Source: Candidatus Omnitrophota bacterium
GTDB lineage: Bacteria > Omnitrophota > Gorgyraeia > JABMRN01 > RBG-13-46-9
Length of the DNA: 64,000 nt
Assembly (NCBI GenBank): GCA_043817155.1
Contig: JBDRHE010000059.1
Location: forward strand, 65,540 to 129,539
Direction: 5' to 3'
The notes under the pieces were generated by a model, which worked only from the letters and a program-made list of their open reading frames with translations, was not told where the DNA came from and ran no database searches. Below are positions 17,966-53,098 of this stretch, one piece after another; position 1 is the stretch's first letter, and each line of letters begins with the position of its first letter. The position numbers and the translations under genes are program-made.

Positions 17966-19501
17966 CTACGCCTTCAAAAGCTTAAGTCCCGCCTTTGCCT
18001 TTCTTTTAAATTCTTCGAATGTCCGTATCTTTAACATTCTGCTCATAATATAGGAAGGGCGGGTATAGAATTCTTTATAGGCATAATGCAAAAGCTCCTG
18101 GAGCTCCTTTTCGGACAATATCCCTTCCCAGTATTTTGTTCTGAAATCCTTACGCGGAGACTTCGCAAAATCCCTCCAATAATCCTGTTTGAATATTCCG
18201 CTTTTCAGCGCGTCTTCATAGGCCTCGGTGCCGGGAAATGGCGTAAATATGGTTATGTGGACGTAATCGGGGTCAAGTTTTTTGGCAAAATCTATCGTTT
18301 TCAATATATCATCTCTGGTCTCCTCCGGGGCCCCGATCATGAAATAAGCGAAAGTTGAGATACCAATATCTTTTGTAGCCTTGAATATCTTTATAGCCCT
18401 GTCCAGGTCTATGTCTTTCTTAAGAACCTTCAATATCTTTTCGGTGCCGGCTTCCACGCCATAGTGTATTCTCTGGCAATTTGATTTTTTTAGCGCCATG
18501 AGCATCTCGCGGTCGACATTGCTGACCCTTGTCCTTATGTCCCACCCTATTTTTAAACGCCGCCTGGCTATCTCTTCGCATACTTCCATTACCCTATTCC
18601 TCTGCACGGTAAACGTATCGTCATAAATGAATATCTCTTTTATGCCCATATTCTGACATTCTTCCATCTCGTCTACCACTTTTCCGGGCGAGATAGCCCG
18701 AAAGACCTTTCCCATGCTTGGCCTATAACAGAACGTACACCGATAAGGACAACCCCTGCTTGTAAACATCGTTGTTATGGGGCTTCGCCGCGCCAAAAGA
18801 GACGTATACTTGCCGTACGGCACGAGGCGGCGTGCGGGAGACGGTAGCTTTTCAAGATCTCTTATAAAATCGGGATTGCCTGTATTGACAACATTTCCGT
18901 TCTCCTTAAAGACTACGCCCTTAACCTTTTTAAGATCTTCTATATTATGCATGTTTGACAGAAGCTCTGTAAATACAATTTCGCCCTCACCAAGTACGAC
19001 ATAATCTATCCCATGTAGATCGATCGTCTCTTCCGGAAAAATACACACGTGCGGTCCTCCAAGGACTACCTTGGTATTCTGATTGATACTTTTTACAATA
19101 TCTACCGTCTTTAAAACGTCGATCATCGTAAATGTAAGCGCCGTGATACCTACTACATCCGGACCATATTCTCTTATGCGCCTTTCGAGCTGCGGATACC
19201 CTATCTCTTCTACCGGAACGTCAATTACGTTTATCTCGTGGTCGGAATGTTTCTCCAGATATGCCGCAACATACAGTATGCCGAGCGGCGGGTTGAACCC
19301 TCTCTCTTCATCGATAATCGGAGGATTACAGCTCAATATCTCGTTCTCTACCGAAGGGTTTATAAATAGGACCTTCACGTCTATCTCGTTCTCCTGTCGA
19401 TAAGGTCTGCCAAAAGTCCGATAACCAGCGTTTGAATACCGGCCATTGCCAAAATCATCGTAGTGGTATCCAGTATTTTCGGCAAACAGAACATGCTCCA
19501 A
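17966..19501 (-). CDS. B12-binding domain radical SAM protein (class B radical SAM, putative methyltransferase)
   Basis: N-terminal cobalamin-binding Rossmann region (VLGEGE) followed by the CxxxCxxC cluster RGCPYRCTFC. Confidence 0.8.
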   Translation of the reverse strand: MEHVLFAENTGYHYDDFGNGRYSNAGYRTFGRPYRQENEIDVKVLFINPSVENEILSCNPPIIDEERGFNPPLGILYVAAYLEKHSDHEINVIDVPVEEIGYPQLERRIREYGPDVVGITALTFTMIDVLKTVDIVKSINQNTKVVLGGPHVCIFPEETIDLHGIDYVVLGEGEIVFTELLSNMHNIEDLKKVKGVVFKENGNVVNTGNPDFIRDLEKLPSPARRLVPYGKYTSLLARRSPITTMFTSRGCPYRCTFCYRPSMGKVFRAISPGKVVDEMEECQNMGIKEIFIYDDTFTVQRNRVMEVCEEIARRRLKIGWDIRTRVSNVDREMLMALKKSNCQRIHYGVEAGTEKILKVLKKDIDLDRAIKIFKATKDIGISTFAYFMIGAPEETRDDILKTIDFAKKLDPDYVHITIFTPFPGTEAYEDALKSGIFKQDYWRDFAKSPRKDFRTKYWEGILSEKELQELLHYAYKEFYTRPSYIMSRMLKIRTFEEFKRKAKAGLKLLKA

Positions 19502-20265
19502 AAAAACACTATTGCGCCTGCGGCAATGAAAACAAAACCTAAGGGCACAAAAATTTTGAGCGGATTAAAGAAGAGGATTGTTCTTACGATTAAGGAGAGC
19601 ATGCTTGCCGTATCTTTTATAGGATGAAATTTAGACAGCCTTCCCCTGTGATCGTAGTCTATAGGCACGTATTTTACCGGACGGCCGCTGGTCAGGAAGG
19701 CAAGCGTTACTGTTGTCGTAAAGGAAAAACCGGAAGGTAGAATATTTAGAATCGACCTCACCTGATCTTTCTTCATTAGTCTAAAACCGGAATTCAGATC
19801 AGGTATCTTCTTCCCGCTTAAATAATTCGCCAGAGTCCTCAGTATATACTTCGCGATCTTCCTCAATATCGGTATATGGATATCTTTACCTGTTCTCGCT
19901 GCTACAACCATATCGTATTCGCGTCTATATTTTAGAAGTTCGGGTATCTTATTATTCGGATACGTGCCGTCAGCATCGATAATGATCAGGGTGTCGTACC
20001 GGGACCGGGCTATACCCTTTTTAAGAGATGCTCCATACCCCTCATTGCATTCGCTGCGCATAAAAACGATATCTTCCTTGCCGCCGACGATCTGTGGTGT
20101 AGCATCACTGGAACCGTCGTCAATTACAATAACTTCGTAATCGGACTGTAGCGAATCCAACACGTCTCTTATTTCGTCGATCACTCTGCCTACGGTCTTT
20201 TCCTCGTTATAGGCCGGAATTATAATGCTAACCCCGGCATCGTCGATATTTTCCATGGCCCCCAT
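19381..20265 (-). CDS. GT2 polyprenyl-phosphate sugar synthase (Dpm1/GtrB/ArnC-like) with C-terminal TM helices
   Basis: SIIIPAYNEE ... VIVIDDGSSD GT2 motifs; two C-terminal TM segments as in GtrB/ArnC. Confidence 0.75.
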   Translation of the reverse strand: MGAMENIDDAGVSIIIPAYNEEKTVGRVIDEIRDVLDSLQSDYEVIVIDDGSSDATPQIVGGKEDIVFMRSECNEGYGASLKKGIARSRYDTLIIIDADGTYPNNKIPELLKYRREYDMVVAARTGKDIHIPILRKIAKYILRTLANYLSGKKIPDLNSGFRLMKKDQVRSILNILPSGFSFTTTVTLAFLTSGRPVKYVPIDYDHRGRLSKFHPIKDTASMLSLIVRTILFFNPLKIFVPLGFVFIAAGAIVFFWSMFCLPKILDTTTMILAMAGIQTLVIGLLADLIDRRTR

Positions 20266-20367
20266 TAAACCCTCCTTCTAGTAAACAGATCGTGTCGATC
20301 TTCTGTCTGTGTAATCTCCTCTGCCTTCATAAGTAAAATCTGTATGATCACGATGAGTCTCTTTGCG

Positions 20368-21762: not shown

Positions 21763-22650
21763 CTAAAGTCCTTTTTCCTTAATAAATTCCAGTATCTTGG
21801 CGGACATCCTTTCTCCGCCTGTGGGAGAGAGATGAAAATAGTCTGTAAAATCACTTTTTTCGACTTCCTCATTCATAAGATCGATGTACGGTATATCGTA
21901 TCTCTCTAGTATTTCAAGAATCGCATCGTACGCAGCCTTGACATATTTCAGATAAACCCTGCCACCCGCTGAATTCTGAATAAAAGCGTTGGGCGTTATT
22001 ACATAGATTACGTTTTTAAACTTATTTTCGTATATGCTCTTGCAGAACGGTTCTTCGCGTGATTTAAGTAATAGGAGATAGCCTTCAAGCATTTTGTCTG
22101 ATTTCATGGAAGTAAAATTTATATTCTCATCTATGTGCATGTAGAAAGCGAGATTATGGTATAGAAAATCATCTAACTTTGCGCCAAAAAACCTCTTCAG
22201 CACCCTTGCCTCCCTCTTAAGCGTATTATGTATATCAGGATATACGAGAAGTTCGTATAGGACTATATTATTGTTAGAAAATACTATCTCTTTATTCTCA
22301 TTAGGAAACCTGTCGATCCATTCAAGGTCAGGCCTATCTTTCACTATCTTCTCTAATTGCCTTCTTATCGAACGCAAAGCCGAACTCTCTACGGTCATGA
22401 TCTCTCTTGTCCCTTTTGGAGCTTCCTGCGTATAAACAAGCTTGTACGGCTTGAACATATTATCCTTATAATACTGTGGCAGATCTTCGCTTATCTCCTC
22501 CTCTGTCCTAAGCTTAAACTGATGATAAAGGAGCCATTCCGGGTTGCGATAGAGATACGCAAGCCTTACCCGAAGCCCTATCTCGCATGTAAAGACCAGG
22601 ATAAGAGACAGTACAAGCGCTCGTTTAATTATTTCCTTTTTCATACGCAA
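21763..22650 (-). CDS. AlgJ/AlgX/DltD-like partner protein of the MBOAT O-acyltransferase (SGNH-like)
   Basis: N-terminal signal anchor; DYFH(L)S motif resembling the AlgJ DTHW block; immediately downstream of the MBOAT. Confidence 0.4.
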   Translation of the reverse strand: MRMKKEIIKRALVLSLILVFTCEIGLRVRLAYLYRNPEWLLYHQFKLRTEEEISEDLPQYYKDNMFKPYKLVYTQEAPKGTREIMTVESSALRSIRRQLEKIVKDRPDLEWIDRFPNENKEIVFSNNNIVLYELLVYPDIHNTLKREARVLKRFFGAKLDDFLYHNLAFYMHIDENINFTSMKSDKMLEGYLLLLKSREEPFCKSIYENKFKNVIYVITPNAFIQNSAGGRVYLKYVKAAYDAILEILERYDIPYIDLMNEEVEKSDFTDYFHLSPTGGERMSAKILEFIKEKGL

Positions 22651-24154
22651 TGATATCTATATTCCTAAATGACTTTCTTTCAATTGGCCGATACCCTTCC
22701 CTACTAATCCAATCGACAATGGCCTGATTGGCTCCGAATACTTCAGCATTCCCGTAAACGCGGTAAAACCAAATCCTCCTGAAAGGTGATACTTTTCGCT
22801 TCAGTTGTTTCCAAACGTCGTTTGATGCGGCAACGTATTCGGTGCGGTTGTCATTTAGCTTAAAATATTTTCTTACTTCTACAAAGTTCGATACTTCATT
22901 AATTTCCGGAGCGGGATCAAAGGAAAGCAGACACTCGTCTTTGTCAATTGCCTGTGTCTGCAAAAATCTTACCGCAGATGCCGTCCCGAATTCTACGGAA
23001 ACGGCATGTGGAATTCTCATGGCGAAAACAATCAGCACGAACACTAAAAGCGTATTTCCTGCAAAGCGGTTTTTGGTCATTATCGTATGTATAAAAAAAG
23101 CTATCAATATTAGAAAGAGCGCGTGCAGCGCTGCGAGATATCGCGGAATTGGCGACAGTCCGATAAACGACGCCGAAAGCCATGAAATAAGAAGAGGCGC
23201 AACTGAAACAAAAGGTAAGAACCATACAAGATCCGCCTTCTGCGGAAAACGGGCCTTCAGTTTTGCCATTGTAAACAGAGAAAACAGACCGAAACTCACA
23301 AAGACCACAAGCGCAAGCATGCCCAGTACGCGCTTTGAAAAGTGGCCGGTTATCCCTCCGTGAAAGGTCATGAAATAGGGGTCAAAACCTGCAAGCGCCG
23401 CCATGTTACGCGCATAGATCCCAATTCGCAGCGCGCCCACATTAAACCCCTTATCCGCCCAATTGTAAGTGAAGCTCGAAGCATTGTCAAACTGACTAAC
23501 TGCATGAGGCAGCCATATGCAAAAAATGAGAGATGCGACGCAGATAGCTGACAACCATCTCAGTAGAAATCTCGGCTTCGTTCGTTTGAAGATAATAATA
23601 AAGAGCGTCTGCGCAAATAGGAGCGGCATTGCAAAGTAGAATGTAAGCATAGCGAGTACGGCCGAAAGCGCATAGCCAATCCAATATGGGAGATTCTCGC
23701 TACCCTTAATAATTTTAAGCATGAAAAACGTAGACAAGAGCATCCAGAATGCGGAATCTCCATAACTGCGCACATATTGAGAGGCAAATATAAGAAGCGG
23801 AGAGAACGTCGCCAATAATAGAGCTACCCTTGCTACTCCTTCGTTGAAGCACTCTTTCCCGATAAGATATATCAGCATACATACGCCGAGGCCGAACATA
23901 ACAAAATAGAGACGTATCCACCATATCGATTGGCTTAAACTCATCCAACCGGAAAGTAAAAAATACGTTAACGGCGGATATACGCTTCTGGCTTTAAGCA
24001 CGGAAACGATATTATTTAAACCCGACCCGGCAATAAGCATTGTCACTGTCTCATCGCCCGAATATTCCCTGGTCAGGTCGATAACTCTGAAAGAGAGACC
24101 GACGCCTAATAATATCAACACAACAAATAAAGGGTGACGGGTCAGTGCTTTCAA
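22625..24154 (-). CDS. GT-C fold membrane glycosyltransferase (GT39/ArnT-like)
   Basis: Polytopic protein; N-terminal loop GDE motif (EYSGDETVTM). Confidence 0.5.
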   Translation of the reverse strand: MKALTRHPLFVVLILLGVGLSFRVIDLTREYSGDETVTMLIAGSGLNNIVSVLKARSVYPPLTYFLLSGWMSLSQSIWWIRLYFVMFGLGVCMLIYLIGKECFNEGVARVALLLATFSPLLIFASQYVRSYGDSAFWMLLSTFFMLKIIKGSENLPYWIGYALSAVLAMLTFYFAMPLLFAQTLFIIIFKRTKPRFLLRWLSAICVASLIFCIWLPHAVSQFDNASSFTYNWADKGFNVGALRIGIYARNMAALAGFDPYFMTFHGGITGHFSKRVLGMLALVVFVSFGLFSLFTMAKLKARFPQKADLVWFLPFVSVAPLLISWLSASFIGLSPIPRYLAALHALFLILIAFFIHTIMTKNRFAGNTLLVFVLIVFAMRIPHAVSVEFGTASAVRFLQTQAIDKDECLLSFDPAPEINEVSNFVEVRKYFKLNDNRTEYVAASNDVWKQLKRKVSPFRRIWFYRVYGNAEVFGANQAIVDWISREGYRPIERKSFRNIDIIAYEKGNN

Positions 24155-24900
24155 GCTTTGCTCCTTGCGCTTTTACACTCTCTGGCTATCAGGCGCACAT
24201 ATGTGCCGACAGTCTTCCATTTATTCATCTTACTCTTTCCTTTTCTAAAGTCGCAGCGAAGAATCATCGGTACTTCGTCTATCCTTAAGCCCAATTTACT
24301 GAATTTGATGAGCATCTCTACCATACATACGAACCCGTTCTCCTCTATGAGGGAGCTCCCGTAAGCCCCAAAGGCCTTCCGTAAACTGGCCGTCCTATAG
24401 GCTCTGTAAAAAGAGCTATAAGTGTTGATCCCTTTGATCGGAAAGAGCAGTTTAAGCATTCCATTAGCAACGCTGCTTAAAAAAATACGGTCGATAGTCG
24501 TACCTACGATCTTTCCTTCGGGCGCATAGCAGGACGCTAGCACCACATCTGTGTGTGAATCGATCTTGTCCAGCATAGCATCCAGTATATCCAGATCGCT
24601 TGTATTGTCGGCTTCTTTTGTTACGATAATATCGTTATCCCCGGCTATCTCCAATGCGCGAGAAAAACCTGTTCTGAATGCCTGACCAACGCCTCTGTTC
24701 GTTTCATGGCTGATTACTTCCAGCGGGATCCTGTCTCTCGCGCTTAAGGCTTTCTCCTCCGTAGAATCCATGCTCCCATCGTTTATTAAGAGTATGCGAT
24801 AGTCCCCCCGATTCAATTCTTTCATCTTGCGACCAATATTATCCAAAAGCGCATCAATATTTTCCGCTTCATTGTACGCCGGAATAACAAACATTATCAT
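24151..24900 (-). CDS. GT2 glycosyltransferase, Dpm1-like polyprenyl-phosphate sugar synthase
   Basis: FVIPAYNE...LLINDGSMDST motifs; translationally coupled to the GT-C gene at 22625-24154. Confidence 0.7.
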   Translation of the reverse strand: MIMFVIPAYNEAENIDALLDNIGRKMKELNRGDYRILLINDGSMDSTEEKALSARDRIPLEVISHETNRGVGQAFRTGFSRALEIAGDNDIIVTKEADNTSDLDILDAMLDKIDSHTDVVLASCYAPEGKIVGTTIDRIFLSSVANGMLKLLFPIKGINTYSSFYRAYRTASLRKAFGAYGSSLIEENGFVCMVEMLIKFSKLGLRIDEVPMILRCDFRKGKSKMNKWKTVGTYVRLIARECKSARSKA

Positions 24901-36295: not shown

Positions 36296-36300
36296 AAAGA

Positions 36301-47234: not shown

Positions 47235-48815
47235 TTATCGATGGGCAAAGCCCAACTTCCCTTTTACCTTTTTAAAAATTAACCTTATTTCTTCTTTATC
47301 CGTACCCGCAATTTTGGGAAATAGATATACGAGTCCGGCAATAACCGCGAAATATATAACCATCTCCGTTACGAGCCTCGCAATAAGAAGGCTGGTTCCC
47401 CGGTCTTTTAAAAAAAACCCAACAATCGCTTTCAAAAGATACATAACAGAGGCTAAGATCGCCCCGCAATAGATCTGGTGCCACCAGAAATGCCCGGGTC
47501 GAATTTTAAAGAATCGACAATTATAAACAAGATAAACTTGAACAACAACAAATTGCCAGATTACAGTCTTAAGGGCAAGGCCCAGCGCGCCCAATTCTAA
47601 TCCGGGTATCGCGAAATTTTTTGGCGCGAGAAAATAATAGGTTAAAGGAATGCCTGAAATCATGGCAATTACGGATATGTTTCTAAGCTGTGCGGTTCTT
47701 TCCGTAGCGTAAAAAGCGGTCCCTCCTAACTGGCCGTATACCTGGTGGATAGGATAAAAAGCCATGATCACGACAACGGTCGTCGCCGGTAAAAATTTCG
47801 GGCCTGCGATCAGTCCCAGCAATTGTTTCGCGTGAAAAGCAAGAAATACGGCCAGTAACAAGGTAAGAAAGTACATTATTTTTAAAAAGCGTGAAAATAT
47901 GCTCGAGGCGCGCGCGGTGTCATGTTTACCGATCGAACTGGCCATTTCACGGTTATATATGGCCAGGATCGACGTAGTAAAAAGAGTGGCAAATGCCGCC
48001 CAGCTGGAGGCTATATGAAAGTACCCCTGATTTATCGATCCTGAGAATCTCTGCAGAATCATCCTGTCAAAATACTCAAATACAAGGCCCACCAGGAGAA
48101 TGGCAACAAGCGGTGAGCAAAACTTATAGAAATAATCAAAAAACTCTTTCAGTTTCCCTTTTACCCTGCCTTCCCAGTATAGGTTCCTGTTGGGAATTAT
48201 TATCCAGAATATAATAGAAAGAGAAATGGTCGCCGAGCAGATCGTCTGTATCGCTATATATCGTCCCAGGTTTAATAATCCGTTCAGAGCGAAATATACA
48301 AGTACCGCGATATTGAGAAGCCCTATACAAAGGCTGATGATCTGGGCGGGCCTGGTGAATCCCTTGCTATCACTCAATTGTTTAAGCGTGCTTACTGAAA
48401 AGAAGACCCAGTCAAAAACCAGTACCCAGATTATATATTTTAGCCCTTGCCCGGGCCAGATAAAGCTGGATATCCCTATCATCACCGCAAATCCTACCAG
48501 AGAGAGCGTAATCAAAAGCTGTCCTACTAACCATACGGAATAGGCCTTGACGAGGGGACCGGTCTTTTCATGCTTTGAATTATAGTTAAAGAACGCGCTT
48601 GAGGTGCCAAGGTTTAAAAAATTCCTGAGCGCGGTACTCACCTTCATCAGGAAGCTAAAGTCCCCCAGCTGCTTCGGCCCCAGCGCCCTGGGGACAATGC
48701 CCGCAGTAACAAGGCTTACGAAGAAAAAGACTGCGTTACTAAATAACGTTACAAAGTATCTCTTGCCTACAGAGTCTACAGCACGCGGTTTTGTGTCATC
48801 TTTAACAATACTCAT
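47235..48815 (-). CDS. Wzx-like oligosaccharide flippase (MOP superfamily polysaccharide biosynthesis protein)
   Basis: 526 aa, ~12-14 TM helices; N-terminal region typical of RfbX/Wzx. Confidence 0.65.
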   Translation of the reverse strand: MSIVKDDTKPRAVDSVGKRYFVTLFSNAVFFFVSLVTAGIVPRALGPKQLGDFSFLMKVSTALRNFLNLGTSSAFFNYNSKHEKTGPLVKAYSVWLVGQLLITLSLVGFAVMIGISSFIWPGQGLKYIIWVLVFDWVFFSVSTLKQLSDSKGFTRPAQIISLCIGLLNIAVLVYFALNGLLNLGRYIAIQTICSATISLSIIFWIIIPNRNLYWEGRVKGKLKEFFDYFYKFCSPLVAILLVGLVFEYFDRMILQRFSGSINQGYFHIASSWAAFATLFTTSILAIYNREMASSIGKHDTARASSIFSRFLKIMYFLTLLLAVFLAFHAKQLLGLIAGPKFLPATTVVVIMAFYPIHQVYGQLGGTAFYATERTAQLRNISVIAMISGIPLTYYFLAPKNFAIPGLELGALGLALKTVIWQFVVVQVYLVYNCRFFKIRPGHFWWHQIYCGAILASVMYLLKAIVGFFLKDRGTSLLIARLVTEMVIYFAVIAGLVYLFPKIAGTDKEEIRLIFKKVKGKLGFAHR

Positions 48816-48819
48816 ACTT

Positions 48820-50694
48820 TTACCTAAGCGCTTTTACAACCGTAGAAACCGTCTTCTCGGCAGCGTCAAAATCTCCGTAGCCGATTCCGTAGGCCTTCCA
48901 AAACGCATCGTCATTTATATCCGCATCATATCTGCCGCGAACAATAAAATCTTCTACCTTCCCCATTAATGCTTCCGGCTCCTGGCAGCATACTGTTCTT
49001 TTTGTTAGCATCTCTTTTGCTTCATCGAAGTAGAGAACGTGCTTGGTTACAATAAACACCGGGATCTTCCCGGCCACGGCCTGGAGGCATGTCGTGGAGG
49101 GAGCATCGATAACTATGAAATCCGCGATATCCAGCAAGTCTATGCACTGCGCTTCATCCTGTACAACAAAGATATTTTCCGAATCGGTTTCCACGAGAGG
49201 AGGTCTGCCCCATTCGCGCAGGGGATGAAGCTTCCACACCAGCAATGTATCGTCCCTTTTCTTAAAGAAGTCGATTATTGCGCTTTGCGTTTTAAAAAAT
49301 ATCCTGTCAGACCACGCCGGGCGAAAATAGTAATACAGGGTACGCCCAAGATATAGTGTCGTCACATATACGCATACCTTCTTCTTGCCATCAATATTTT
49401 TTTCTTTCAGCCACTTTTTTAAATTTGCCGGCACTTTTCCTCTTCGGGTTTTAAGACGTTCGAGCTTAGGTGAGCCTGTAGAGACAACTGTCATGTTACT
49501 TAAACCGGCTTCGCCTAATCCCTTATAAAGTTTTACGGCTTTATCGGTGTTTGCCAGGTAATAATCGGCGTACAAGAGTTCGTTGTCTAATACTTTTATC
49601 ATCTCAAAAGACCCGGTCGCCCCGTGAGATTTGCAAAAAGCGGGGATCTCTTGTTGAGCGAAAGCTTCACCGGCGCTTCTCCATTCAGGGGTTCCCAGCG
49701 AACTGAATAGTAATGCCCTGGGATTCTCTCTGGCAATATAGTCTTTGGTGGTATCGAATGCTTCAACACAACGTTTCGCGCCCTCTTTAAAAATAAAGAG
49801 TAGACGCGGTAATATCAAATCGGAAATATTCAAGCCATCAAGATCTAGTATGTCGCTTAATTCGCGCGATATCTCCTTCTCAACTTCGGTATCTCCTACG
49901 GGAATACCATCATTAGCGTACTTTATATCGAGCTTTTTGAGATTTATGCCGCTGGCATTAAAAAAGTCTTCGCATTCCCCCCACTCATATTCTCCGCCCA
50001 ATAGAACGCAAGTAGTTTTTTTCTTGAATACCATTGATAATCTTCTCAGTAAAGCTGATATGCCGTTTTTCTTAATTTCATATATTATCGAAAAATGTTT
50101 TTTGATGTAATTCTTTGCTCTAATTGACGCATCCGAAAGAATCACGCTGGGACGAGGCTCCGGACCGTCTTTCGCCTTGTATCCAAAAGATTCCAAAAAA
50201 TGGATCTCTTCCTGCCAGTTGCAGTCTTCCAGAATTCTCGAGTATATAAATTCGCGCTTATCGAACCCTATGCCGCGCCAGGAAAAGGGAAATATTCCTG
50301 ATCTGTAACAGAATACCCTGCCGGGCTTGTGACTCCTGAAAATTGATTTTAATTGGAATACCCTGCCGAGTATGCTATCAAGTACTACGCACAGCGACAC
50401 GTTAAAATTAGTGTACAATTTAATATTCCTCTTCTTCAGTTCTTCGGATCTTGAAAACGCAAAAGCATCCAGTCTCAGACATATTTTTTTAACTATGTCG
50501 AAAGATCGTAGGCCAACCTGCCACAGCTCTTCCTCCGTATAGAATTCTTCGGGCAGGTGGTATTTGACATCTCTTTTATCGAGCGCGTGCATCGCATGCG
50601 GAGTAAGCGCGATCAGTATACCATGCTCACCTTTCTGCTTGTCCAATACATCTTCAACGTGTTCTTCTGTTTCAACTAAATAGATATCTTTCAT
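48820..50694 (-). CDS. Large hypothetical protein, possibly a TagF/KpsS-like polymer phosphotransferase or capsule biosynthesis protein
   Basis: 624 aa soluble protein. The C-terminal region has a KLHP histidine motif and general resemblance to CDP-glycerol glycerophosphotransferase/capsule-synthesis families. The match is weak. Confidence 0.3.
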   Translation of the reverse strand: MKDIYLVETEEHVEDVLDKQKGEHGILIALTPHAMHALDKRDVKYHLPEEFYTEEELWQVGLRSFDIVKKICLRLDAFAFSRSEELKKRNIKLYTNFNVSLCVVLDSILGRVFQLKSIFRSHKPGRVFCYRSGIFPFSWRGIGFDKREFIYSRILEDCNWQEEIHFLESFGYKAKDGPEPRPSVILSDASIRAKNYIKKHFSIIYEIKKNGISALLRRLSMVFKKKTTCVLLGGEYEWGECEDFFNASGINLKKLDIKYANDGIPVGDTEVEKEISRELSDILDLDGLNISDLILPRLLFIFKEGAKRCVEAFDTTKDYIARENPRALLFSSLGTPEWRSAGEAFAQQEIPAFCKSHGATGSFEMIKVLDNELLYADYYLANTDKAVKLYKGLGEAGLSNMTVVSTGSPKLERLKTRRGKVPANLKKWLKEKNIDGKKKVCVYVTTLYLGRTLYYYFRPAWSDRIFFKTQSAIIDFFKKRDDTLLVWKLHPLREWGRPPLVETDSENIFVVQDEAQCIDLLDIADFIVIDAPSTTCLQAVAGKIPVFIVTKHVLYFDEAKEMLTKRTVCCQEPEALMGKVEDFIVRGRYDADINDDAFWKAYGIGYGDFDAAEKTVSTVVKALR

Positions 50695-50711
50695 AGTGTT
50701 ATAGTCTTTAT

Positions 50712-51713
50712 TTACGAAAACACGGAGTGGTAAACCTTGCTCGCGATCTTGTCAAAATGGAAACGCGAGAGAAACTTTTTCGTGTAATGTTTGATCATCA
50801 TATTTCTCAAATAGCTCGATACCTCCTCTGAATGATTTGCGAGATCCTGTCCGTCACAACTGCCGGCAGATATCTCAAAAATAGAGAACATATGTATTGT
50901 TTGGGCCGGACCATGCGTCAGACGCCGCAAGCCTGCTAAAGAGCAATAGTGGTTAAGTGTCTCCGGATCAAAATAGTATGTATGGGCATTCTGAAGTTGC
51001 CCCATGCAAAAATTCATGATATTTGGAACTGCTATGTATAAGAGACCACCGGTTTTAAGATGCAATATGATCTTTTTGAGCGAATCCACCGGATCAAGAA
51101 AGTGCTCCAGTGCGTGGTTTATTATTATAACGTCATGATCTCCTTTTATGCGCTCAACATCCCCTTGTGACATATCGATTCCGTGTTCTCTTCCTAAGGA
51201 TACGAGACTCGGACTGTGATCTATGCCGGCAACGCCGGCGCCCTTTTCCAGGAACGGTATGAGGTTCCACCCTCCTCCTGCCGCGCATTCCAGAACAGAT
51301 ACTTCCGGACCTATCTTCTTGACCTTACTTATCTCGTCAAATATATGCTGACCTGTTCGATTGGTATATTTCTGCTCATATCTAGATAAGTAATTATCCG
51401 AGTCGTAGCATCTTCTGTAGAAATCGGATGAGTAGAATCGAGCGTACTCTCCTGGGGTCATCCGCGGGTTTGACTGCATAAGTCCGCACTTTCGGCATAA
51501 TACGGTCTTTTGAAGCATCAGATGTCTTTCCACCGATGCCACGAGCTCAAACTCTTCTGAACCACAAAGGCAGGGAACGTATTCAAGTCGCACATCGCCA
51601 CGCAACACTTCTTCATTAAAATTCTTTACGAGATCACCCTGCCCCTTATCAAGGCACATATAGGAAGCCTGGCGCGTTGAATGAAACTCTTTATAGGGTA
51701 ATATCTTCTTCAT
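50712..51713 (-). CDS. Class I SAM-dependent methyltransferase with N-terminal zinc-ribbon
   Basis: CxCG...CxxCG ribbon; motif I VLECAAGGG. Confidence 0.6.
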   Translation of the reverse strand: MKKILPYKEFHSTRQASYMCLDKGQGDLVKNFNEEVLRGDVRLEYVPCLCGSEEFELVASVERHLMLQKTVLCRKCGLMQSNPRMTPGEYARFYSSDFYRRCYDSDNYLSRYEQKYTNRTGQHIFDEISKVKKIGPEVSVLECAAGGGWNLIPFLEKGAGVAGIDHSPSLVSLGREHGIDMSQGDVERIKGDHDVIIINHALEHFLDPVDSLKKIILHLKTGGLLYIAVPNIMNFCMGQLQNAHTYYFDPETLNHYCSLAGLRRLTHGPAQTIHMFSIFEISAGSCDGQDLANHSEEVSSYLRNMMIKHYTKKFLSRFHFDKIASKVYHSVFS

Positions 51714-53098
51714 GTCTGTCTGAAACCGCGGAATGCCGCATTCTTCTTCACGTAGAGTTCCTCACATTGCCTGCGGCTTGCCAAAAGCTTCTTATTATAA
51801 TAATTATCGAGCAACCTCTCGTTGGCGTCCTTAAGACACATGTGAAACTCATCATCGCTTAACTCGGTAAAATTTACCGCCGGCAGGTCTGAATTCATAT
51901 GCTTATTTTCGTAAAAATCTTTTACATCTTTGAGAAGGCCTTTTTCGATAGCGTAATAGTAGAGCGGCGAGCCGGGGTACGGTGTTACGGGACGCAGAGT
52001 TCTTAGCTGCGCCCCGTCATCGTACTTGATCAGAAAGTCCACGGCTTTCTTAAGTGTCCGGTTTGTATCGCCTATGTTGCCGAATAACAGGTTAAGGCCG
52101 GGAGTTATGCCTGCGCTTATGGTGCCTTCTACGCCTTTTATAATAATATCGACCGTCAAAGCCTTCTTCATATTTTTCAATACTTCATTATCCATGGCCT
52201 CAATACCATAATTGATGAACACGCATCCGGATTCCTTCATCAACTTTAATACATCTTTTTTGGCGTAGTTCAATCTGCCGTTACACTTCCACCTTATGTT
52301 CAGCCCGGCCCTGATAAAACTTTCGCATAATGAAACAGTCCTCTCTTCTGAGGACATCAGAAGTTCATCGGTAAAATCGATATAATTTATGTCGTATTGA
52401 GTCTTTAAAAGCTCGATCTCTTCGATAATGCTCTTCTCGCTTCTGGGCCTGAACCCCTCATCCATTCTGTAACAGAAATTACAGTTAAAGGTGCATCCCC
52501 TTCCCGATAAAATAGGCATCATAAAATCACTCTTTCCCATGGTGATGTCTCTAAATAGCCTGTAATAATCTATGGGAAAGAGCCCATATGCAGGAAACGG
52601 TATTGAATCTATATCTTTTATGAGACCTCGTCGTTTATTGATTACTACCTTCTTTCCATCGAGATATGCTATACCATCGATCTTCGTAAGTGGTTTACGA
52701 TTAGCGACGCTTTCGATGAGTTCTATTACAGTCTCTTCCCCTTCTCCGATTATAGCCGCATCGGCGCCACTCTTCTTTAGAAAGTACTCCGGTTCGGGAG
52801 AAGGGCCGTGGCCGCCAATCATATAAAATGGCCTTTGTCTCGATCTGTTTATCGCATCCGATATTTTTAATAACTTTCTATATTGATAGTATCCCCCTAT
52901 AACACCCAACCCGACAAAATCGAATCTATTGTTATCCAGGTATCGCGTGAGATGTTCTTCGGAGTAGTGGAACTTGTCTTGGTTATAAAGCTCCACATCA
53001 TGGCCCTGCTTCAACAGCACAGAAGCTATATAGGCTATGCCTTGCGGAAATATGTGAATGTATGAACCGTTATCGTAAGCTATCAATAGGATTCTCAT
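51710..53098 (-). CDS. B12-binding domain radical SAM protein
   Basis: IGEGEE; GRGCTFNCNFC. Confidence 0.8.
   Translation of the reverse strand: MRILLIAYDNGSYIHIFPQGIAYIASVLLKQGHDVELYNQDKFHYSEEHLTRYLDNNRFDFVGLGVIGGYYQYRKLLKISDAINRSRQRPFYMIGGHGPSPEPEYFLKKSGADAAIIGEGEETVIELIESVANRKPLTKIDGIAYLDGKKVVINKRRGLIKDIDSIPFPAYGLFPIDYYRLFRDITMGKSDFMMPILSGRGCTFNCNFCYRMDEGFRPRSEKSIIEEIELLKTQYDINYIDFTDELLMSSEERTVSLCESFIRAGLNIRWKCNGRLNYAKKDVLKLMKESGCVFINYGIEAMDNEVLKNMKKALTVDIIIKGVEGTISAGITPGLNLLFGNIGDTNRTLKKAVDFLIKYDDGAQLRTLRPVTPYPGSPLYYYAIEKGLLKDVKDFYENKHMNSDLPAVNFTELSDDEFHMCLKDANERLLDNYYNKKLLASRRQCEELYVKKNAAFRGFRQT

What the first reader, a model, noticed from the sequence alone, without database searches (positions are those of the whole stretch)
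17966..53098. Exceptional density of B12-binding radical SAM paralogues (7) plus 6 class I methyltransferases inside one glycan gene cluster
Seven ~460-530 aa proteins share an N-terminal cobalamin-binding domain (xGEGE) and a CxxxCxxC radical SAM core. They lie at 17966-19501, 29268-30824, 33853-35316, 38212-39687, 41551-43056, 43056-44516 and 51710-53098. They are interleaved with GT2/GT4 transferases, six SAM methyltransferases and a further non-B12 radical SAM (56706-57551). Class B radical SAM enzymes such as Fom3, PhpK and GenK/GenD1 methylate unactivated carbon or phosphorus. A cluster this rich implies a glycan, or glycan-phosphonate, with many unusual C/O/N-methyl or epimerised positions. 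The paralogue expansion looks lineage-specific, and the functions are essentially undescribed.
Basis: partly seen in the sequence, partly recalled or inferred. Interest (0 to 1): 0.85.

Follow-up and report, generated by a model that had tools for sequence, protein, structure and literature searches.

The report
Modular glycan-phosphonate island with seven B12-radical-SAM enzymes

Summary
Observation confirmed. Seven intact ORFs each have a B12-binding domain, a radical SAM domain and CxxxCxxC. Six class I methyltransferases and a radical SAM/SPASM gene lie in the same co-directional cluster.

Interpretation partly supported. The window comes from a Candidatus Omnitrophota MAG.

The seven paralogues are only 22-39% identical. 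Five of them have much closer orthologues (50-70%) in other phyla, so this is not a lineage-specific expansion.
- **R6** (with R3, R5, R4) belongs to a conserved phosphonate cassette. R6 orthologues sit next to PepM or Ppd in 10 of 13 loci and occur fused to the transaminase or the nucleotidyltransferase.
- **R7** (about 70% conserved across phyla) sits inside legionaminic-acid-type operons.
- **R1** is part of a GT2-rSAM-methyltransferase-GT-C module found in Brocadia, CPR and Chloroflexota.

Most likely mechanism (inferred): Fom3-like, cobalamin-dependent C-methylation of module-specific intermediates. None of the seven reaches any curated family cut-off, and their chemistry is untested. Dense B12-rSAM arrays recur in other uncultured anaerobes.

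The parts
17966..19378 (-). R1: class B radical SAM. Member of a ~470-aa family conserved at ~60% identity across phyla. Sits in a GT2-R1-MT-GT-C module.
   Evidence: Pfam B12-binding 95 bits and Radical_SAM 102 bits. Best NCBIfam hit is HpnJ, 234 bits vs cut-off 578. Orthologues at 57-67% in Patescibacteria, Ca. Brocadia and Chloroflexota. GT2-R1 adjacency in L095-L097. R1::methyltransferase fusion P0260. Start at 19378.
29268..30824 (-). R2: class B radical SAM, an orphan paralogue between a GT4 and a UDP-GlcNAc 2-epimerase.
   Evidence: Pfam B12-binding 58 bits and Radical_SAM 103 bits. Best NCBIfam hit is BchE, 158 bits vs cut-off 481. Nearest homologue in the fetched loci is only ~33% identical.
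33853..35316 (-). R3: class B radical SAM, SD_1168-like. Last gene of the phosphonate cassette.
   Evidence: NF038361, 306 bits vs cut-off 575. 39% identical to R6. Orthologue at 63% at the same cassette position in L001, 52% in L002 and 46% in L022.
38212..39687 (-). R4: the most divergent class B radical SAM. Has SEAE in place of GEGE. An old duplicate of the R5 type, inserted between the nucleotidyltransferase and the CDP-alcohol transferase.
   Evidence: Pfam B12-binding 47 bits and Radical_SAM 66 bits. 35% identical to R5. Its nearest neighbours are R5-type genes.
41551..43056 (-). R5: class B radical SAM directly downstream of R6.
   Evidence: Pfam. R5 orthologue at 56% identity next to PepM in L044. 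R6-R5 adjacency in L023. R5-like genes near PepM in L001, L060 and L067. Belongs to a large diffuse family: 3005 cluster representatives at E<=1e-30, best 50% identity.
43056..44516 (-). R6: class B radical SAM, SD_1168-like. Core phosphonate-pathway enzyme.
   Evidence: NF038361, 390 bits vs cut-off 575. Orthologues >=47% identical have PepM or Ppd nearby in 10/13 loci and the transaminase in 11/13. Fusions P0036 (transaminase::R6) and P0043 (nucleotidyltransferase::R6). AF2 model pLDDT 93. Class B fold.
51710..53098 (-). R7: class B radical SAM from a very conserved 462-aa family associated with nonulosonic-acid pathways. Flanked here by two methyltransferases.
   Evidence: More than 120 clusters at 66-71% identity in Omnitrophota, Nitrospirota, Bacillota and Thermodesulfobacteriota. 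Lies inside Leg-type operons in L093, L094 and L098/L099.
45570..47207 (-). PEP mutase fused to a MobA-like nucleotidyltransferase (Ppm-PntC type).
   Evidence: PF13714 198 bits plus PF12804. TIGR02320 320.9 bits vs cut-off 319.55. EDKHFPKVNS at residue 110. This fusion type is common among Ppm enzymes (PMC6697681).
44513..45573 (-). Split phosphonopyruvate decarboxylase: alpha 45085-45573, beta 44513-45088.
   Evidence: TPP_enzyme_N and TPP_enzyme_C. TIGR03297 scores 154 + 175 bits, covering profile positions 2-155 and 173-357. These are higher than the sulfopyruvate decarboxylase models.
40458..41522 (-). Class V aminotransferase, 2-aminoethylphosphonate aminotransferase-like.
   Evidence: PF00266. 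TIGR03301 PhnW-AepZ 320 bits vs cut-off 361, the best hit. Homologues sit next to R6 orthologues in 11/13 loci.
39757..40461 (-). Stand-alone nucleotidyltransferase (second NTP_transf_3).
   Evidence: PF12804 53 bits. Weak hits to inositol-1-P cytidylyltransferase and to the Sden_1164 family. Conserved in the cassette.
37388..38218 (-). Membrane CDP-alcohol phosphotransferase-like protein. Candidate transferase of the CMP-activated phosphonate.
   Evidence: PF01066 25.6 bits, GA 22. Weak hits to archaetidylinositol-phosphate synthase. Four hydrophobic segments. Conserved in L001, L002, L022 and L024.
35321..37425 (-). Cassette methyltransferase with an N-terminal Cys4 ribbon (36301-37425) and an APH/choline-kinase-like protein (35321-36295).
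   Evidence: Pfam. Orthologues at 57% and 33% at the same positions in L001.
47235..50694 (-). Wzx-type flippase (47235-48815) and a 624-aa soluble putative glycosyl or nonulosonate transferase (48820-50694).
   Evidence: PF01943. The flippase precedes PepM in L001, L022 and L024. The 624-aa protein has only weak hits: Glyphos_transf 19 bits and BFO_1060 family 36 bits vs cut-off 200. BFO_1060 is a Tannerella Pse/Leg transferase homologue (PMC5420450).
53430..58841 (-). Nonulosonate-like set upstream of R7: short NeuB (57960-58841), radical SAM/SPASM (56706-57551), CMP-sugar synthetase (55941-56702), class III aminotransferase (54550-55944), methyltransferase (53430-54119).
   Evidence: Pfam. 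NeuB_NnaB 251 bits and PseF 136 bits, both below cut-off. NeuB and SPASM orthologues at 78% and 77% sit upstream of the PepM cassette in L001.
14292..20265 (-). Lipid-linked sugar module around R1: GT2 with C-terminal TM helices (19381-20265), R1, GT-C/PMT_2 (16314-17963), methyltransferase (15722-16312), second GT-C-like protein (14292-15725).
   Evidence: Pfam. The GT2's best NCBIfam hits are AglJ, dolichyl-P hexose transferase, ArnC and PpgS, all below cut-off. TM predictions. The same module occurs in L095-L097.
22625..26608 (-). Second ArnC/ArnD/ArnT-like set: polysaccharide deacetylase (25622-26608), methyltransferase (24897-25625), GT2 (24151-24900), GT-C/PMT_2 (22625-24154).
   Evidence: Pfam. 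NCBIfam. Nine TM segments in the GT-C.
29..7540 (-). Legionaminic/neuraminic-type nonulosonate pathway: dehydratase, DegT aminotransferase, PglD-NeuB-SAF fusion, NeuC-type 2-epimerase, epimerase, cytidylyltransferase-PfkB fusion.
   Evidence: Pfam. NeuB_NnaB 497 bits vs cut-off 400, and NeuD 205 bits vs cut-off 161.

Best explanation
The window is one co-directional, 64-kb cell-surface glycoconjugate island of an uncultured Omnitrophota bacterium. It is built from several pre-existing pathway modules, and each module brings its own cobalamin-type (class B) radical SAM enzyme.

1. Phosphonate module. PEP mutase (fused to a cytidylyltransferase-type domain) and a split phosphonopyruvate decarboxylase make phosphonoacetaldehyde. 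An AEP-type transaminase makes a 2-aminoethylphosphonate-like compound. A nucleotidyltransferase activates it as the CMP ester. R6, helped by R5, R4 and R3, modifies the short carbon chain. The most likely chemistry is methylcobalamin-dependent radical C-methylation, as Fom3 does on CMP-2-hydroxyethylphosphonate. A class I methyltransferase may N-methylate the product. A CDP-alcohol-transferase-like membrane protein then hands the head group to a glycan or lipid acceptor.
2. Nonulosonate module. R7, flanked by two methyltransferases, modifies a legionaminic-acid-type nine-carbon sugar or its CMP derivative.
3. Lipid-linked sugar module. A GT2 loads a sugar on polyprenyl phosphate. R1 and a class I methyltransferase modify it on the lipid. 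A GT-C enzyme transfers it outside the membrane, following ArnC/ArnD/ArnT logic.
4. R2 acts on a nucleotide sugar or growing glycan near a GT4 and a 2-epimerase.

Shown here: domain content, motifs, module membership, synteny across phyla and gene fusions. Inferred: that the reactions are methylations, the exact substrates, and the acceptor.
For: Class B identity:
- Pfam domains above threshold in 7/7 and CxxxCxxC in 7/7.
- Gly-Gly motif in 7/7 and Gly-Glu motif in 6/7 (motifs defined in PMC9204698).
- The profile of the seven aligns over the B12 domain with QCMT/MgmA, OxsB, TsrM, TokK and CysS.
- The R6 model (pLDDT 93) matches the same structures at TM 0.63-0.66.

Source organism: 100% identical proteins are annotated as Candidatus Omnitrophota MAG on a 137,462-bp contig.

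Phosphonate core:
- TIGR02320 passes its cut-off, and the EDKxxxxxNS motif is present.
- The two Ppd halves cover the whole TIGR03297 model, and PhnW-AepZ is the best hit for the transaminase.

The cassette Flippase-PepM-PpdAB-R6-AT-NTP-CDPOH-MT-(kinase)-R3 is syntenic in a Planctomycetia MAG (L001) and in L022 and L024.

R6 linkage to the phosphonate pathway:
- R6 orthologues >=47% identical have PepM or Ppd in 10/13 loci and the transaminase in 11/13.
- R3-like-only loci have PepM or Ppd in 0/11, which serves as an internal control.
- Rosetta-stone fusions join the transaminase to R6 (P0036) and the nucleotidyltransferase to R6 (P0043).
- R6 and R3 are closest to SD_1168 (390 and 306 bits). 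Two reviews place SD_1168 with Fom3, MoeK5, HpnJ and GenK among methylases, with physiological substrate unknown (PMC9204698; PMC12931638).
- The precedent is Fom1 (a Ppm with a fused cytidylyltransferase) plus Fom3, which acts on CMP-HEP (PMC6697681; PMC9204698).

R7:
- 66-71% identity, 462 aa, across four or more phyla.
- It lies inside Leg-type operons between the NeuC/NeuB/PtmF-like genes and the CMP-synthetase in L093 (a flagellin glycosylation island), L094 and L098/L099.

R1:
- GT2-R1 abut or overlap in Brocadia, Portnoybacteria and Chloroflexota, with a methyltransferase and PMT_2 nearby.
- There is an R1::MT fusion.
- The GT2 resembles polyprenyl-P sugar synthases and has C-terminal TM helices.
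Against: - No paralogue reaches the curated cut-off of any characterised family, so no function can be transferred by homology.
- The best structural and PDB-sequence match of R6 and of the seven-paralogue profile is AprD4, a radical SAM 1,2-diol dehydratase of an aminosugar. I recall that AprD4 has a B12-like domain but does not use cobalamin; I did not check this here. If it is right, a B12-domain fold does not prove methylation.
- R4 lacks the Gly of the Gly-Glu motif.
- Four rSAM enzymes on a two-carbon phosphonate is more than simple methylation needs.
- R7 also occurs in a second context without NeuB (L092, L100). In this window it lies 45 kb from the complete Leg-type set.
- Nothing is known about cobalamin supply. 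No cobalamin riboswitch, and no Rfam hit of any kind, is present in the window, and the rest of the genome was not available.
- The CDP-alcohol transferase and kinase-like genes fit a phosphonolipid as well as they fit a phosphonoglycan.
Confidence: 0.6

Rival explanations
1. Some or all of the seven are not methyltransferases. They would perform other radical chemistry on sugars or phosphonates: 1,2-diol or amino-alcohol dehydration as in AprD4, ring contraction as in OxsB or HpnJ, epimerisation or oxidation. The B12-like domain might not bind cobalamin.
For: - AprD4 is the top hit of the seven-paralogue profile in PDB sequences (166 bits) and of the R6 model in Foldseek (TM 0.74).
- AprD4 acts on an aminosugar (entry title).
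- R1's best family hit is HpnJ, whose function the review lists as 'other or unknown'.
- R4 has a degenerate Gly-Glu motif.
- The cluster already has six class I methyltransferases.
Against: - The Gly-Gly and Gly-Glu cobalamin-tail motifs are kept in 7/7 and 6/7.
- The AprD4 sequence match covers only the radical SAM core (profile positions 175-411). The cobalamin-dependent enzymes align from the B12 domain onwards.
- AprD4's NCBIfam model scores only 57-132 bits against a cut-off of 500.
- Most characterised class B enzymes, and the nearest named relative SD_1168, are methylases.
Confidence: 0.22
2. R6 and R3 are P-methyltransferases, as the NCBIfam name of their nearest family says. They would convert an H-phosphinate into a P-methyl phosphinate head group, as PhpK does in phosphinothricin biosynthesis.
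For: - The nearest model is NF038361, 'Sden_1168 family B12-binding radical SAM P-methyltransferase' (390 and 306 bits).
- SD_1168 is cited for P-methyl transfer in vitro (reference 48 in PMC9204698).
Against: - Both scores are below the 575-bit cut-off.
- The PhpK model scores only 103-108 bits against a cut-off of 600.
- The reviews say SD_1168 may do C- or P-methylation and that its physiological substrate is unknown.
- The window encodes the ordinary PnPy to PnAA to AEP route, with a transaminase. As I recall the phosphinothricin pathway (not checked here), an H-phosphinate needs HEP dioxygenase and carboxy-PEP mutase type steps. Pfam found none of these.
Confidence: 0.08
3. The phosphonate cassette makes a membrane phosphonolipid head group by a Kennedy-like route (kinase-like protein, cytidylyltransferase, CDP-alcohol phosphotransferase, N-methyltransferase) rather than a glycan decoration. 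The rSAM enzymes would tailor that lipid head group.
For: - The CDP-alcohol phosphatidyltransferase family hit, the archaetidylinositol-phosphate synthase similarity, the choline-kinase/APH-like protein and the methyltransferase are all conserved in the cassette.
- The transferase is an integral membrane protein.
Against: - In the window and in L001, L022 and L024, the cassette is preceded by a Wzx-type flippase and embedded among glycosyltransferases and nonulosonate genes.
- The Pfam hits for the transferase (25.6 bits) and the kinase (22.1 bits, below GA) are weak.
Confidence: 0.25
4. The seven genes are a recent, lineage-specific paralogue expansion within this Omnitrophota lineage.
For: Seven same-architecture genes lie in one cluster. 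R4 and R5 (35%) and R3 and R6 (39%) are each other's closest in-window relatives.
Against: - Pairwise identity is only 22-39%.
- Closer orthologues exist in other phyla: R7 at 66-71%, R1 at 57-67%, R3 at 63%, R5 at 56% and R6 at ~50-55%. R6 also has 71-79% matches on contigs of unknown taxon.
- Orthologues keep their own module neighbours in those phyla.
Confidence: 0.03
5. The cluster is a secondary-metabolite gene cluster (a phosphonate antibiotic or aminoglycoside-like compound), not a cell-surface pathway.
For: Fom3, PhpK, GenK and AprD4 all come from antibiotic pathways. antiSMASH-type tools call B12-rSAM-rich clusters in Omnitrophota 'ladderane' or phosphonate BGCs (PMC9902471).
Against: - The cluster has a Wzx flippase, three GT-C enzymes with 9-10 TM segments, polyprenyl-P-type GT2s, an MBOAT, two nonulosonate pathways with CMP-synthetases and a WbpB/D/E-like set.
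- I saw no NRPS, PKS or resistance genes in the Pfam scans.
- A Ppm fused to PF12804 is the commonest Ppm fusion, and the survey reporting it says most bacterial phosphonate capacity goes to cell-surface tailoring (PMC6697681).
Confidence: 0.05

Closest known systems
Fom1/Fom3 step of fosfomycin biosynthesis (Ppm with fused cytidylyltransferase; class B rSAM C-methylating CMP-2-hydroxyethylphosphonate)
   Same: A PEP mutase fused to a nucleotidyltransferase domain, a phosphonopyruvate decarboxylase and a class B radical SAM lie side by side. R6 orthologues are even fused to a nucleotidyltransferase. Reviews group SD_1168 with Fom3.
   Different: - The fused domain here is PF12804 (PntC/LicC type), not PF01467.
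- The pathway has a transaminase, which points to AEP rather than HEP.
- There is no epoxidase, and up to four rSAM genes are present.
- The setting is a surface-glycan island, not an antibiotic cluster.
- Sequence membership with Fom3 could not be tested because no model or sequence was available.
SD_1168 (Shewanella denitrificans) / NCBIfam NF038361
   Same: It is by far the best-scoring named family for R6 (390 bits) and R3 (306 bits). The window's nucleotidyltransferase also weakly hits the neighbouring Sden_1164 family.
   Different: Both scores are below the 575-bit equivalog cut-off. SD_1168's own physiological substrate is unknown, so it offers no function to transfer.
Phosphonyl tailoring (Pnt) pathway: Ppm-PntC, Ppd, AEP transaminase, CMP-AEP (Rice et al. 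2019, PMC6697681)
   Same: Ppm with the EDKxxxxxNS motif fused to PF12804, Ppd, an AEP-transaminase-like gene, a second nucleotidyltransferase, and a cell-surface context.
   Different: The papers I read on Pnt pathways and phosphonate branch points do not describe class B radical SAM genes as part of these pathways. The only mention found is a radical SAM near ppm-ppd in Campylobacter (PMC8942020).
Sugar-modifying class B rSAM enzymes of antibiotic pathways (GenK/GenD1, MoeK5, Fms7) and AprD4
   Same: They share the architecture, and their substrates are sugars or aminosugars. AprD4 is the best structural match of R6.
   Different: Those act on secondary metabolites. Here the context is nonulosonate, polyprenyl-P sugar and O-antigen-like pathways. 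No model reached threshold: AprD4 scores 57-132 bits against 500. GenK and MoeK5 were not testable.
ArnC/ArnD/ArnT lipid-linked sugar modification and transfer
   Same: A GT2 with C-terminal TM helices resembling polyprenyl-P sugar synthases, a modifying enzyme or enzymes, and a GT-C transferase lie in one module. A second set even has an ArnD-type deacetylase.
   Different: The modifying enzymes are a class B rSAM and a class I methyltransferase. All NCBIfam scores are below cut-off, and the logic is inferred from gene order only.

Membership tests
Class B (cobalamin-dependent) radical SAM enzymes | CxxxCxxC cluster motif within a Radical_SAM (PF04055) core | tested here: met
   One CxxxCxxC in each of the seven. 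PF04055 scores 66-103 bits against GA 29.5.
Class B (cobalamin-dependent) radical SAM enzymes | N-terminal Rossmann-type B12-binding domain (PF02310) | tested here: met
   47-95 bits against GA 32.1 in 7/7. The profile aligns with the B12 domains of QCMT, OxsB, TsrM, TokK and CysS.
Class B (cobalamin-dependent) radical SAM enzymes | Gly-Gly motif on beta4 and Gly-Glu motif at alpha5, which hold the cobalamin tail (PMC9204698) | tested here: met
   Gly-Gly is invariant (G117, G118 in R6 numbering). Gly-Glu is present in 6/7; R4 has Ala-Glu. In the R6 model the motifs lie at the end of strand 113-118 and just before helix 145-150.
Class B (cobalamin-dependent) radical SAM enzymes | Actual cobalamin binding and dependence | not testable with these tools
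   R6's top fold match is AprD4. I recall that AprD4 has the domain but does not use cobalamin (not checked here). Sequence alone therefore cannot settle this.
NF038361 Sden_1168 family P-methyltransferase | Score at or above the 575-bit equivalog cut-off | tested here: not met
   R6 390 bits, R3 306 bits, the others 98 bits or less.
TIGR04479 PhpK/BcpD P-methyltransferase | Score at or above 600 bits; pathway able to make an H-phosphinate | tested here: not met
   77-156 bits. No HEP dioxygenase or carboxy-PEP mutase type genes were found in the window.
Fom3-type CMP-phosphonate C-methyltransferase | Class B rSAM encoded with Ppm, Ppd and a phosphonate cytidylyltransferase | tested here: met
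   R6 lies directly downstream of Ppm-NTP and Ppd. This holds in 10/13 orthologue loci, and NTP::R6 fusions exist.
Fom3-type CMP-phosphonate C-methyltransferase | Sequence orthology to Fom3 and C-methylation of a CMP-phosphonate | not tested
   No Fom3 model or sequence was available in the tools. Activity needs an experiment.
TIGR03471 HpnJ (hopanoid-associated rSAM) | Score at or above 577.6 bits and hopanoid (hpn) gene context | tested here: not met
   R1 scores 234 bits, the best of the seven. No hpn or squalene-hopene cyclase genes are in the window. R1 orthologues sit after a GT2 in glycan contexts.
TIGR04072 ladderane-lipid B12 rSAM | Score at or above 360 bits | tested here: not met
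   R7 scores 135 bits and R1 161 bits.
NF033070 AprD4 diol dehydratase | Score at or above 500 bits | tested here: not met
   57-132 bits. Fold similarity only: TM 0.74, 21% identity.
PEP mutase (true Ppm) | EDKxxxxxNS motif and TIGR02320 at or above 319.55 bits | tested here: met
   EDKHFPKVNS at residue 110. 320.9 bits, only just above the cut-off.
Phosphonopyruvate decarboxylase (TIGR03297) | Full-length match at or above 312.5 bits | tested here: inconclusive
   The gene is split. The halves score 154.3 and 175.3 bits and together cover profile positions 2-357. Each alone is below the cut-off. Both exceed their sulfopyruvate decarboxylase scores.
AEP aminotransferase (TIGR03301 PhnW-AepZ) | Score at or above 360.8 bits | tested here: inconclusive
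   320.2 bits. It is the best hit, full length, but below the cut-off.

The most novel reading that the evidence does not exclude
Uncultured anaerobes across many phyla (Omnitrophota, Planctomycetota, CPR/Patescibacteria, Nitrospirota, Chloroflexota, some archaea) may use dedicated families of cobalamin-dependent radical SAM enzymes to put carbon-bound methyl or short branched alkyl groups on cell-surface building blocks. This would give three new kinds of product:
- C-alkylated aminophosphonate head groups (R6, R5, R4, R3). This would also reveal the long-unknown physiological role of the SD_1168 family.
- C-methylated legionaminic-type nonulosonic acids (R7), including on flagellins.
- C-methylated polyprenyl-phosphate-linked sugars (R1).

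Surface glycan C-methylation would then be a general, cobalamin-demanding trait of anoxic microbial communities.
Probability: 0.3. Interest if true: 0.8.

Novelty: new variant of a known kind. Interest (0 to 1): 0.62.

Why it matters
Class B radical SAM enzymes form a very large family. The R5 query alone matched more than 41,000 50%-identity clusters at E<=0.001. Only a few dozen have known functions, nearly all in antibiotic, cofactor or lipid pathways.

This island gives three concrete, testable family-to-pathway assignments in primary cell-surface biosynthesis:
- a B12-rSAM step inside the common Ppm-PntC-Ppd-AEP transaminase phosphonate tailoring route;
- a B12-rSAM inside legionaminic-acid operons;
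- a GT2-rSAM-methyltransferase-GT-C module that even reduced CPR genomes keep.

If the products are C-methylated phosphonates and nonulosonic acids, three things follow. They would be new natural structures. They would explain what the SD_1168 family does in vivo. They would add to the cobalamin demand of these uncultured organisms (several are thought to be host-dependent) and to the pool of hydrolysis-resistant organic phosphorus in anoxic waters and sediments.

Tried and rejected
- **Exact-protein look-ups** of the window's PepM and of P0001 found no contig on record. The rest of the MAG could therefore not be read, and cobalamin synthesis and uptake could not be checked.
- **S-layer glycan paper.** I expected the Kuenenia S-layer glycan paper to describe such a gene cluster. 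It does not; it reports only a methylated O-glycan. That lead was dropped, and the organism is Omnitrophota, not an anammox bacterium.
- **Literature searches** found nothing specific. The combinations tried were radical SAM with aminoethylphosphonate or phosphonoglycan, with legionaminic or nonulosonic acid, with Omnitrophota or Patescibacteria glycosyltransferases, and 'Sden_1168'. The SD_1168 primary paper is not held.
- **Rfam** at gathering threshold gave no hit in the window, so there is no cobalamin or SAM riboswitch. No tRNAs were found.
- **R7's flanking proteins.** I tested whether the large unannotated proteins flanking R7 orthologues in L092 and L100 match the window's 624-aa protein. 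They do not. The only match is a 23% hit to an L094 protein.
- **R2 and R4** could not be placed in a conserved neighbourhood.
- **Alternative genetic code.** Rejected as the cause of the in-frame TGA in the asnB-like gene, because TGA ends 24 of 56 genes.

Full report
**1. Observation.**

All large ORFs of the window lie on the minus strand and form one tightly packed, co-directional array from 63990 down to 29.
- Each has a single CxxxCxxC.
- Each scores above the Pfam gathering thresholds for both PF02310 B12-binding (47-95 bits, GA 32.1) and PF04055 Radical_SAM (66-103 bits, GA 29.5).
- All are full length and uninterrupted.

Two start codons needed checking. R1 most likely begins at 19378 (GTG with a GGAG upstream). 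That gives 470 aa, identical to the database protein P0241.

A review of the OxsB, TsrM and TokK structures defines two cobalamin-tail motifs: a Gly-Gly on beta4 and a Gly-Glu at the start of alpha5 of the B12 domain (PMC9204698).
- The Gly-Gly is invariant in the seven.
- The Gly-Glu is present in six. R4 has SEAE.

Six class I methyltransferases, three GT2, three GT1/GT4, three GT-C-like proteins and one radical SAM/SPASM protein are interleaved. Only four of the six methyltransferases lie inside 17966-53098.

**2. Source and overall anatomy.**

Three of the paralogues have 100% identical database proteins named 'MAG: radical SAM protein [Candidatus Omnitrophota bacterium]' on a 137,462-bp contig. 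The contig itself could not be retrieved.

Pfam and NCBIfam scans of all 56 ORFs show a composite surface-glycoconjugate island. In transcription order it holds:
- a WbpB/D/E-like diacetamido-sugar set (63990-60403);
- a short NeuB, a radical SAM/SPASM, a CMP-sugar synthetase and a class III aminotransferase (58841-54550);
- methyltransferase, R7, methyltransferase (54119-50712);
- a 624-aa putative transferase and a Wzx flippase (50694-47235);
- the phosphonate module (47207-33853);
- GT2, methyltransferase, GT4, R2, 2-epimerase, epimerase and GNAT (33849-26605);
- an ArnD-like deacetylase, methyltransferase, GT2 and GT-C (26608-22625);
- an MBOAT (21762-20368);
- GT2, R1, GT-C, methyltransferase and a GT-C-like protein (20265-14292);
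- two GT1/GT4 genes and an asnB-like gene (14292-10121);
- a complete NeuB-type nonulosonate pathway (7540-29).

**3.

The ORF at 45570-47207 is a true PEP mutase.
- PF13714 scores 198 bits, and TIGR02320 scores 320.9 bits against a cut-off of 319.55.
- It has the diagnostic EDKxxxxxNS motif, as EDKHFPKVNS.
- It is fused to a PF12804 nucleotidyltransferase. This is the commonest Ppm fusion, found in a third of all Ppm enzymes (PMC6697681).

The pathway genes that follow it are listed below. R6, R5 and R4 lie between them and R3 closes the cassette (section 5).
- Two ORFs that together cover the whole phosphonopyruvate decarboxylase model, at 154 + 175 bits.
- A class V aminotransferase whose best hit is the AEP aminotransferase model (320 bits; cut-off 361).
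- A second nucleotidyltransferase.
- A CDP-alcohol-phosphotransferase-like membrane protein.
- A methyltransferase with a Cys4 ribbon.
- A kinase-like protein.

**4. Not a lineage-specific expansion.**

The seven are only 22-39% identical pairwise. The best pairs are R3/R6 at 39% and R4/R5 at 35%. In contrast:
- R7 has more than 120 database clusters at 66-71% identity. Nearly all are exactly 462 aa. They come from Omnitrophota, Thermodesulfovibrionales/Nitrospirota, Bacillota and Thermodesulfobacteriota.
- R1 has orthologues at 57-67% in Patescibacteria, Ca. Brocadia, Chloroflexota and Omnitrophota.
- R6 has several thousand homologues. About 50% identity is found in Riflebacteria, Elusimicrobiota, Magnetococcales, Nanoarchaeota and Promethearchaeia.
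- R3 has a 63% orthologue in a Planctomycetia MAG, and R5 a 56% orthologue in a metagenome contig.

In a distance analysis of 157 B12-rSAM ORFs from the fetched loci, every window paralogue except R2 and R4 is nearest to foreign orthologues, not to another window paralogue.

**5. Phosphonate module (R6, R5, R4, R3).**

I searched one genome per GTDB species with the PepM fusion. The nearest relatives were in Planctomycetia MAGs (68% and 62%), Omnitrophota (62%) and Ca. Scalindua (58%).

L001 (Planctomycetia) shows the same order as the window: short NeuB (78%), DegT, SPASM-rSAM (77%), CMP-synthetase, two R5-like genes, flippase, PepM, PpdA, PpdB, R6, transaminase, nucleotidyltransferase, CDP-alcohol transferase, methyltransferase, kinase-like protein, R3. 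L022 and L024 carry the same core.

A metagenome scan seeded with an R6-family alignment returned 80 loci. Among loci of at least 8 kb:
- R6 orthologues at 47% identity or more have PepM or Ppd nearby in 10 of 13 loci and the transaminase in 11 of 13.
- More distant R6-like genes (38-47%) have PepM in 10 of 21.
- Loci whose central gene is R3-like have PepM in 0 of 11. This is an internal control for specificity.

Two Rosetta-stone fusions tie R6 to its neighbours:
- P0036 is transaminase::R6. Its residues 12-355 match the window transaminase (E 9e-45), and residues 359-848 are 51% identical to R6.
- P0043 is nucleotidyltransferase::R6.

R6-R5 adjacency recurs in L023. R5-type genes lie near PepM in L044, L060 and L067.

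R6 and R3 score highest against NF038361, the SD_1168 family, at 390 and 306 bits. That is far above any other model but below the 575-bit cut-off. Two reviews state that SD_1168 groups with Fom3, MoeK5, HpnJ and GenK, and that its physiological substrate is unknown (PMC9204698; PMC12931638).

**6. Nonulosonate module (R7).**

Five genomic contexts of R7 orthologues (68-70% identical) were read.
- **L093 (Bacillota MAG).** The gene lies in a flagellin glycosylation island, between a NeuC-type epimerase and NeuB-SAF. Upstream are a dehydratase, DegT and a PglD-type acetyltransferase. Downstream are a CBS-nucleotidyltransferase and a CMP-synthetase.
- **L094 (Thermodesulfobacteriota MAG).** It follows a dehydratase, DegT, acetyltransferase, epimerase, NeuB-SAF and a further epimerase/dehydratase-family gene, and it precedes a CMP-synthetase. 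A short NeuB, a methyltransferase, a class III aminotransferase and a second CMP-synthetase lie a few genes further on, as in the window.
- **L098/L099 (Nitrospirota).** It is the penultimate gene of a canonical GDP-GlcNAc-type legionaminic acid operon, between a GFO/IDH/MocA gene and the CMP-synthetase.
- **L092 and L100.** The context differs: large unannotated proteins, an ABC exporter and three further B12-rSAM genes.

In the window, R7 is flanked by two methyltransferases. It is preceded by the short-NeuB set and followed by a 624-aa protein. That protein's only NCBIfam hit is weak (36 bits) and is to the BFO_1060 family, homologues of the Tannerella Pse/Leg transferases.

**7. Lipid-linked sugar module (R1).**

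In Ca. Brocadia (L095), a Portnoybacteria CPR genome (L096) and a Chloroflexota MAG (L097), the R1 orthologue directly follows a GT2 of about 290 aa. The genes overlap by 4 bp in L095 and L097, and a 16-nt gap separates them in L096. A class I methyltransferase, a GT-C (PMT_2) gene, or both are nearby. P0260 is an R1::methyltransferase fusion.

The window has the same set: GT2 19381-20265, R1, PMT_2, methyltransferase, and a second GT-C-like protein.
- The GT2's best hits are AglJ, dolichyl-phosphate hexose transferase, ArnC and PpgS, all below cut-off.
- It has C-terminal hydrophobic helices.
- The GT-C proteins have 9-10 predicted TM segments.

**8. Density elsewhere.**

Dense arrays are recurrent:
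- six B12-rSAM genes in 21 kb (L059, L080);
- five in 12.9 kb (L065);
- four within about 8 kb of a CPR genome (L096);
- four plus a SPASM enzyme in L092;
- four in L001.

Seven in 35 kb is at the high end, but it is not a singular event. The sample is biased, because every locus was fetched for having one such gene.

**9. Mechanism: shown versus inferred.**

Shown: class B architecture and motifs, the presence of a genuine phosphonate pathway, module-specific synteny across phyla, and fusions.

Inferred: that the reactions are methylcobalamin-dependent radical C-methylations. The inference rests on four points.
- The nearest named relative (SD_1168) and most characterised class B enzymes are methylases.
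- There is a Fom1/Fom3 precedent: a Ppm with a fused cytidylyltransferase and a class B enzyme acting on the CMP-phosphonate.
- The cobalamin-tail motifs are conserved.
- R6 is fused to the nucleotidyltransferase and to the transaminase.

For R6 I therefore propose C-methylation of an AEP-type intermediate, most likely as the CMP ester, giving an aminopropylphosphonate-type head group. R5, R4 and R3 would add further or iterative alkylations, and the cassette methyltransferase would N-methylate.

The main caveat is structural. The AlphaFold model of R6 (pLDDT 93, pTM 0.92) matches AprD4 best (TM 0.74). TsrM, MgmA/QCMT, CysS, TokK and OxsB follow at 0.63-0.66. AprD4 is a radical SAM diol dehydratase acting on an aminosugar. 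I recall that it does not use cobalamin, but I did not check this here. Non-methylating chemistry therefore cannot be excluded.

P-methylation, which is the NCBIfam label, is unlikely. The pathway is the ordinary PnPy to PnAA to AEP route. As I recall the phosphinothricin pathway (not checked here), making an H-phosphinate needs HEP dioxygenase and carboxy-PEP mutase type steps, and the Pfam scans found neither.

Whether the head group ends on a glycan or on a lipid is open. The flippase and glycan context favours a glycan. The CDP-alcohol transferase and kinase-like genes would also fit a Kennedy-type phosphonolipid route.

**10. Comparison with the known, and novelty.**

None of the seven meets the curated threshold of any NCBIfam family: HpnJ, BchE, ladderane rSAM, PhpK, SD_1168, AprD4, MJ_0865 and others. 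They are members of the class B superfamily, but not of any characterised family.

The two phosphonate-genomics papers I read do not describe class B rSAM genes in cell-surface Pnt pathways. A marine phosphonate survey has no mention of radical SAM or cobalamin. Searches that paired radical SAM with nonulosonic acids, or with Omnitrophota and CPR glycan clusters, found nothing specific. One metagenomic study reports 'ladderane' BGC calls in Omnitrophota and other non-anammox phyla (PMC9902471). Clusters like this one may be what triggers such calls; this is my inference.

I rate the finding a new variant of a known kind. The enzyme class and the pathway logics are known. The pairings are new and testable, and the R1, R6 and R7 families are widespread.

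**11. Limits.**
- R2 and R4 have no informative orthologue context.
- Cobalamin supply could not be checked.
- No Fom3, GenK or SD_1168 sequences were available for a direct tree.
- Neighbourhood counts come from small, biased samples.
- All chemistry is inferred.

Noticed in passing
window 8470-9088, 59380-60315 and 57700-57914: The two ~1-kb gene-free gaps share repeated sequence. Each gap lies just upstream of an HTH regulator gene (7705-8259 and 58867-59397).
- 8488-8733 matches 60300-60052 at 82% over 249 nt.
- 8971-9083 matches 59491-59380 at 85%.
- 8762-8843 matches 59630-59549 at 93%.

Each ~280-nt unit is a long nested inverted repeat. The stretch 60030-60320 folds at -162 kcal/mol, z = -15.9 against shuffles. 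A third palindromic stretch lies at 57700-57914. No Rfam family matches, and no copy of the 25-nt inner-arm motif is present in the 101 fetched loci. The element could be MITE/REP-like or a structured regulatory RNA.
   Followed up: partly
window 10121-12013 (stop at 11225-11227): The asparagine-synthase-like amidotransferase is split into two same-frame ORFs by one in-frame TGA. By my recollection of the AsnB PP-loop consensus (VPxGxxLSGGxDSS), the TGA falls at the position of the conserved Gly; the window reads ...SDVPL*AFLSGGIDSS.... TGA is a normal stop in 24 of 56 genes here, so this is a nonsense mutation, an assembly error or a recoding event, not an alternative genetic code.
   Followed up: partly
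P0106 (homologue of R6, 797 aa): An R6-family protein from a metagenome carries an insertion of about 300 aa that looks like an intein. Precomputed Pfam hits on the protein are PF13392 and PF14890. The insertion sits exactly inside the radical SAM cluster motif, between CPFRC and VFC.
   Followed up: no
L096 8001-15496 (Candidatus Portnoybacteria, GCA_028688325.1): A CPR/Patescibacteria genome carries four B12-binding radical SAM genes within about 8 kb, next to a GT2, a methyltransferase and an LPG_synthase_TM protein. If these enzymes use cobalamin, that is a notable cofactor demand for a group generally described as having small genomes.
   Followed up: no
L093 1-17000 (Bacillota MAG GCA_040755295.1): The R7 orthologue lies in a flagellin glycosylation island, with three flagellin genes, an MptE-like protein and a legionaminic-type operon. 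This suggests that some flagellins carry a radical-SAM-modified nonulosonic acid.
   Followed up: partly
window 56706-58841 and L001 (first ~3.5 kb): A short NeuB homologue (293 aa, no SAF domain) and a small radical SAM/SPASM protein (281 aa) are 78% and 77% identical to a pair in a Planctomycetia MAG. In both genomes they lie upstream of the PepM cassette, with a CMP-sugar synthetase close by. In L001 a DegT-like gene separates the pair. This conserved trio has unknown function and may make a non-standard ulosonic acid.
   Followed up: no
window 21763-22650: A 295-aa ORF between the MBOAT and a GT-C gene has no Pfam family, even at E<=0.01, and a single N-terminal hydrophobic segment.
   Followed up: no
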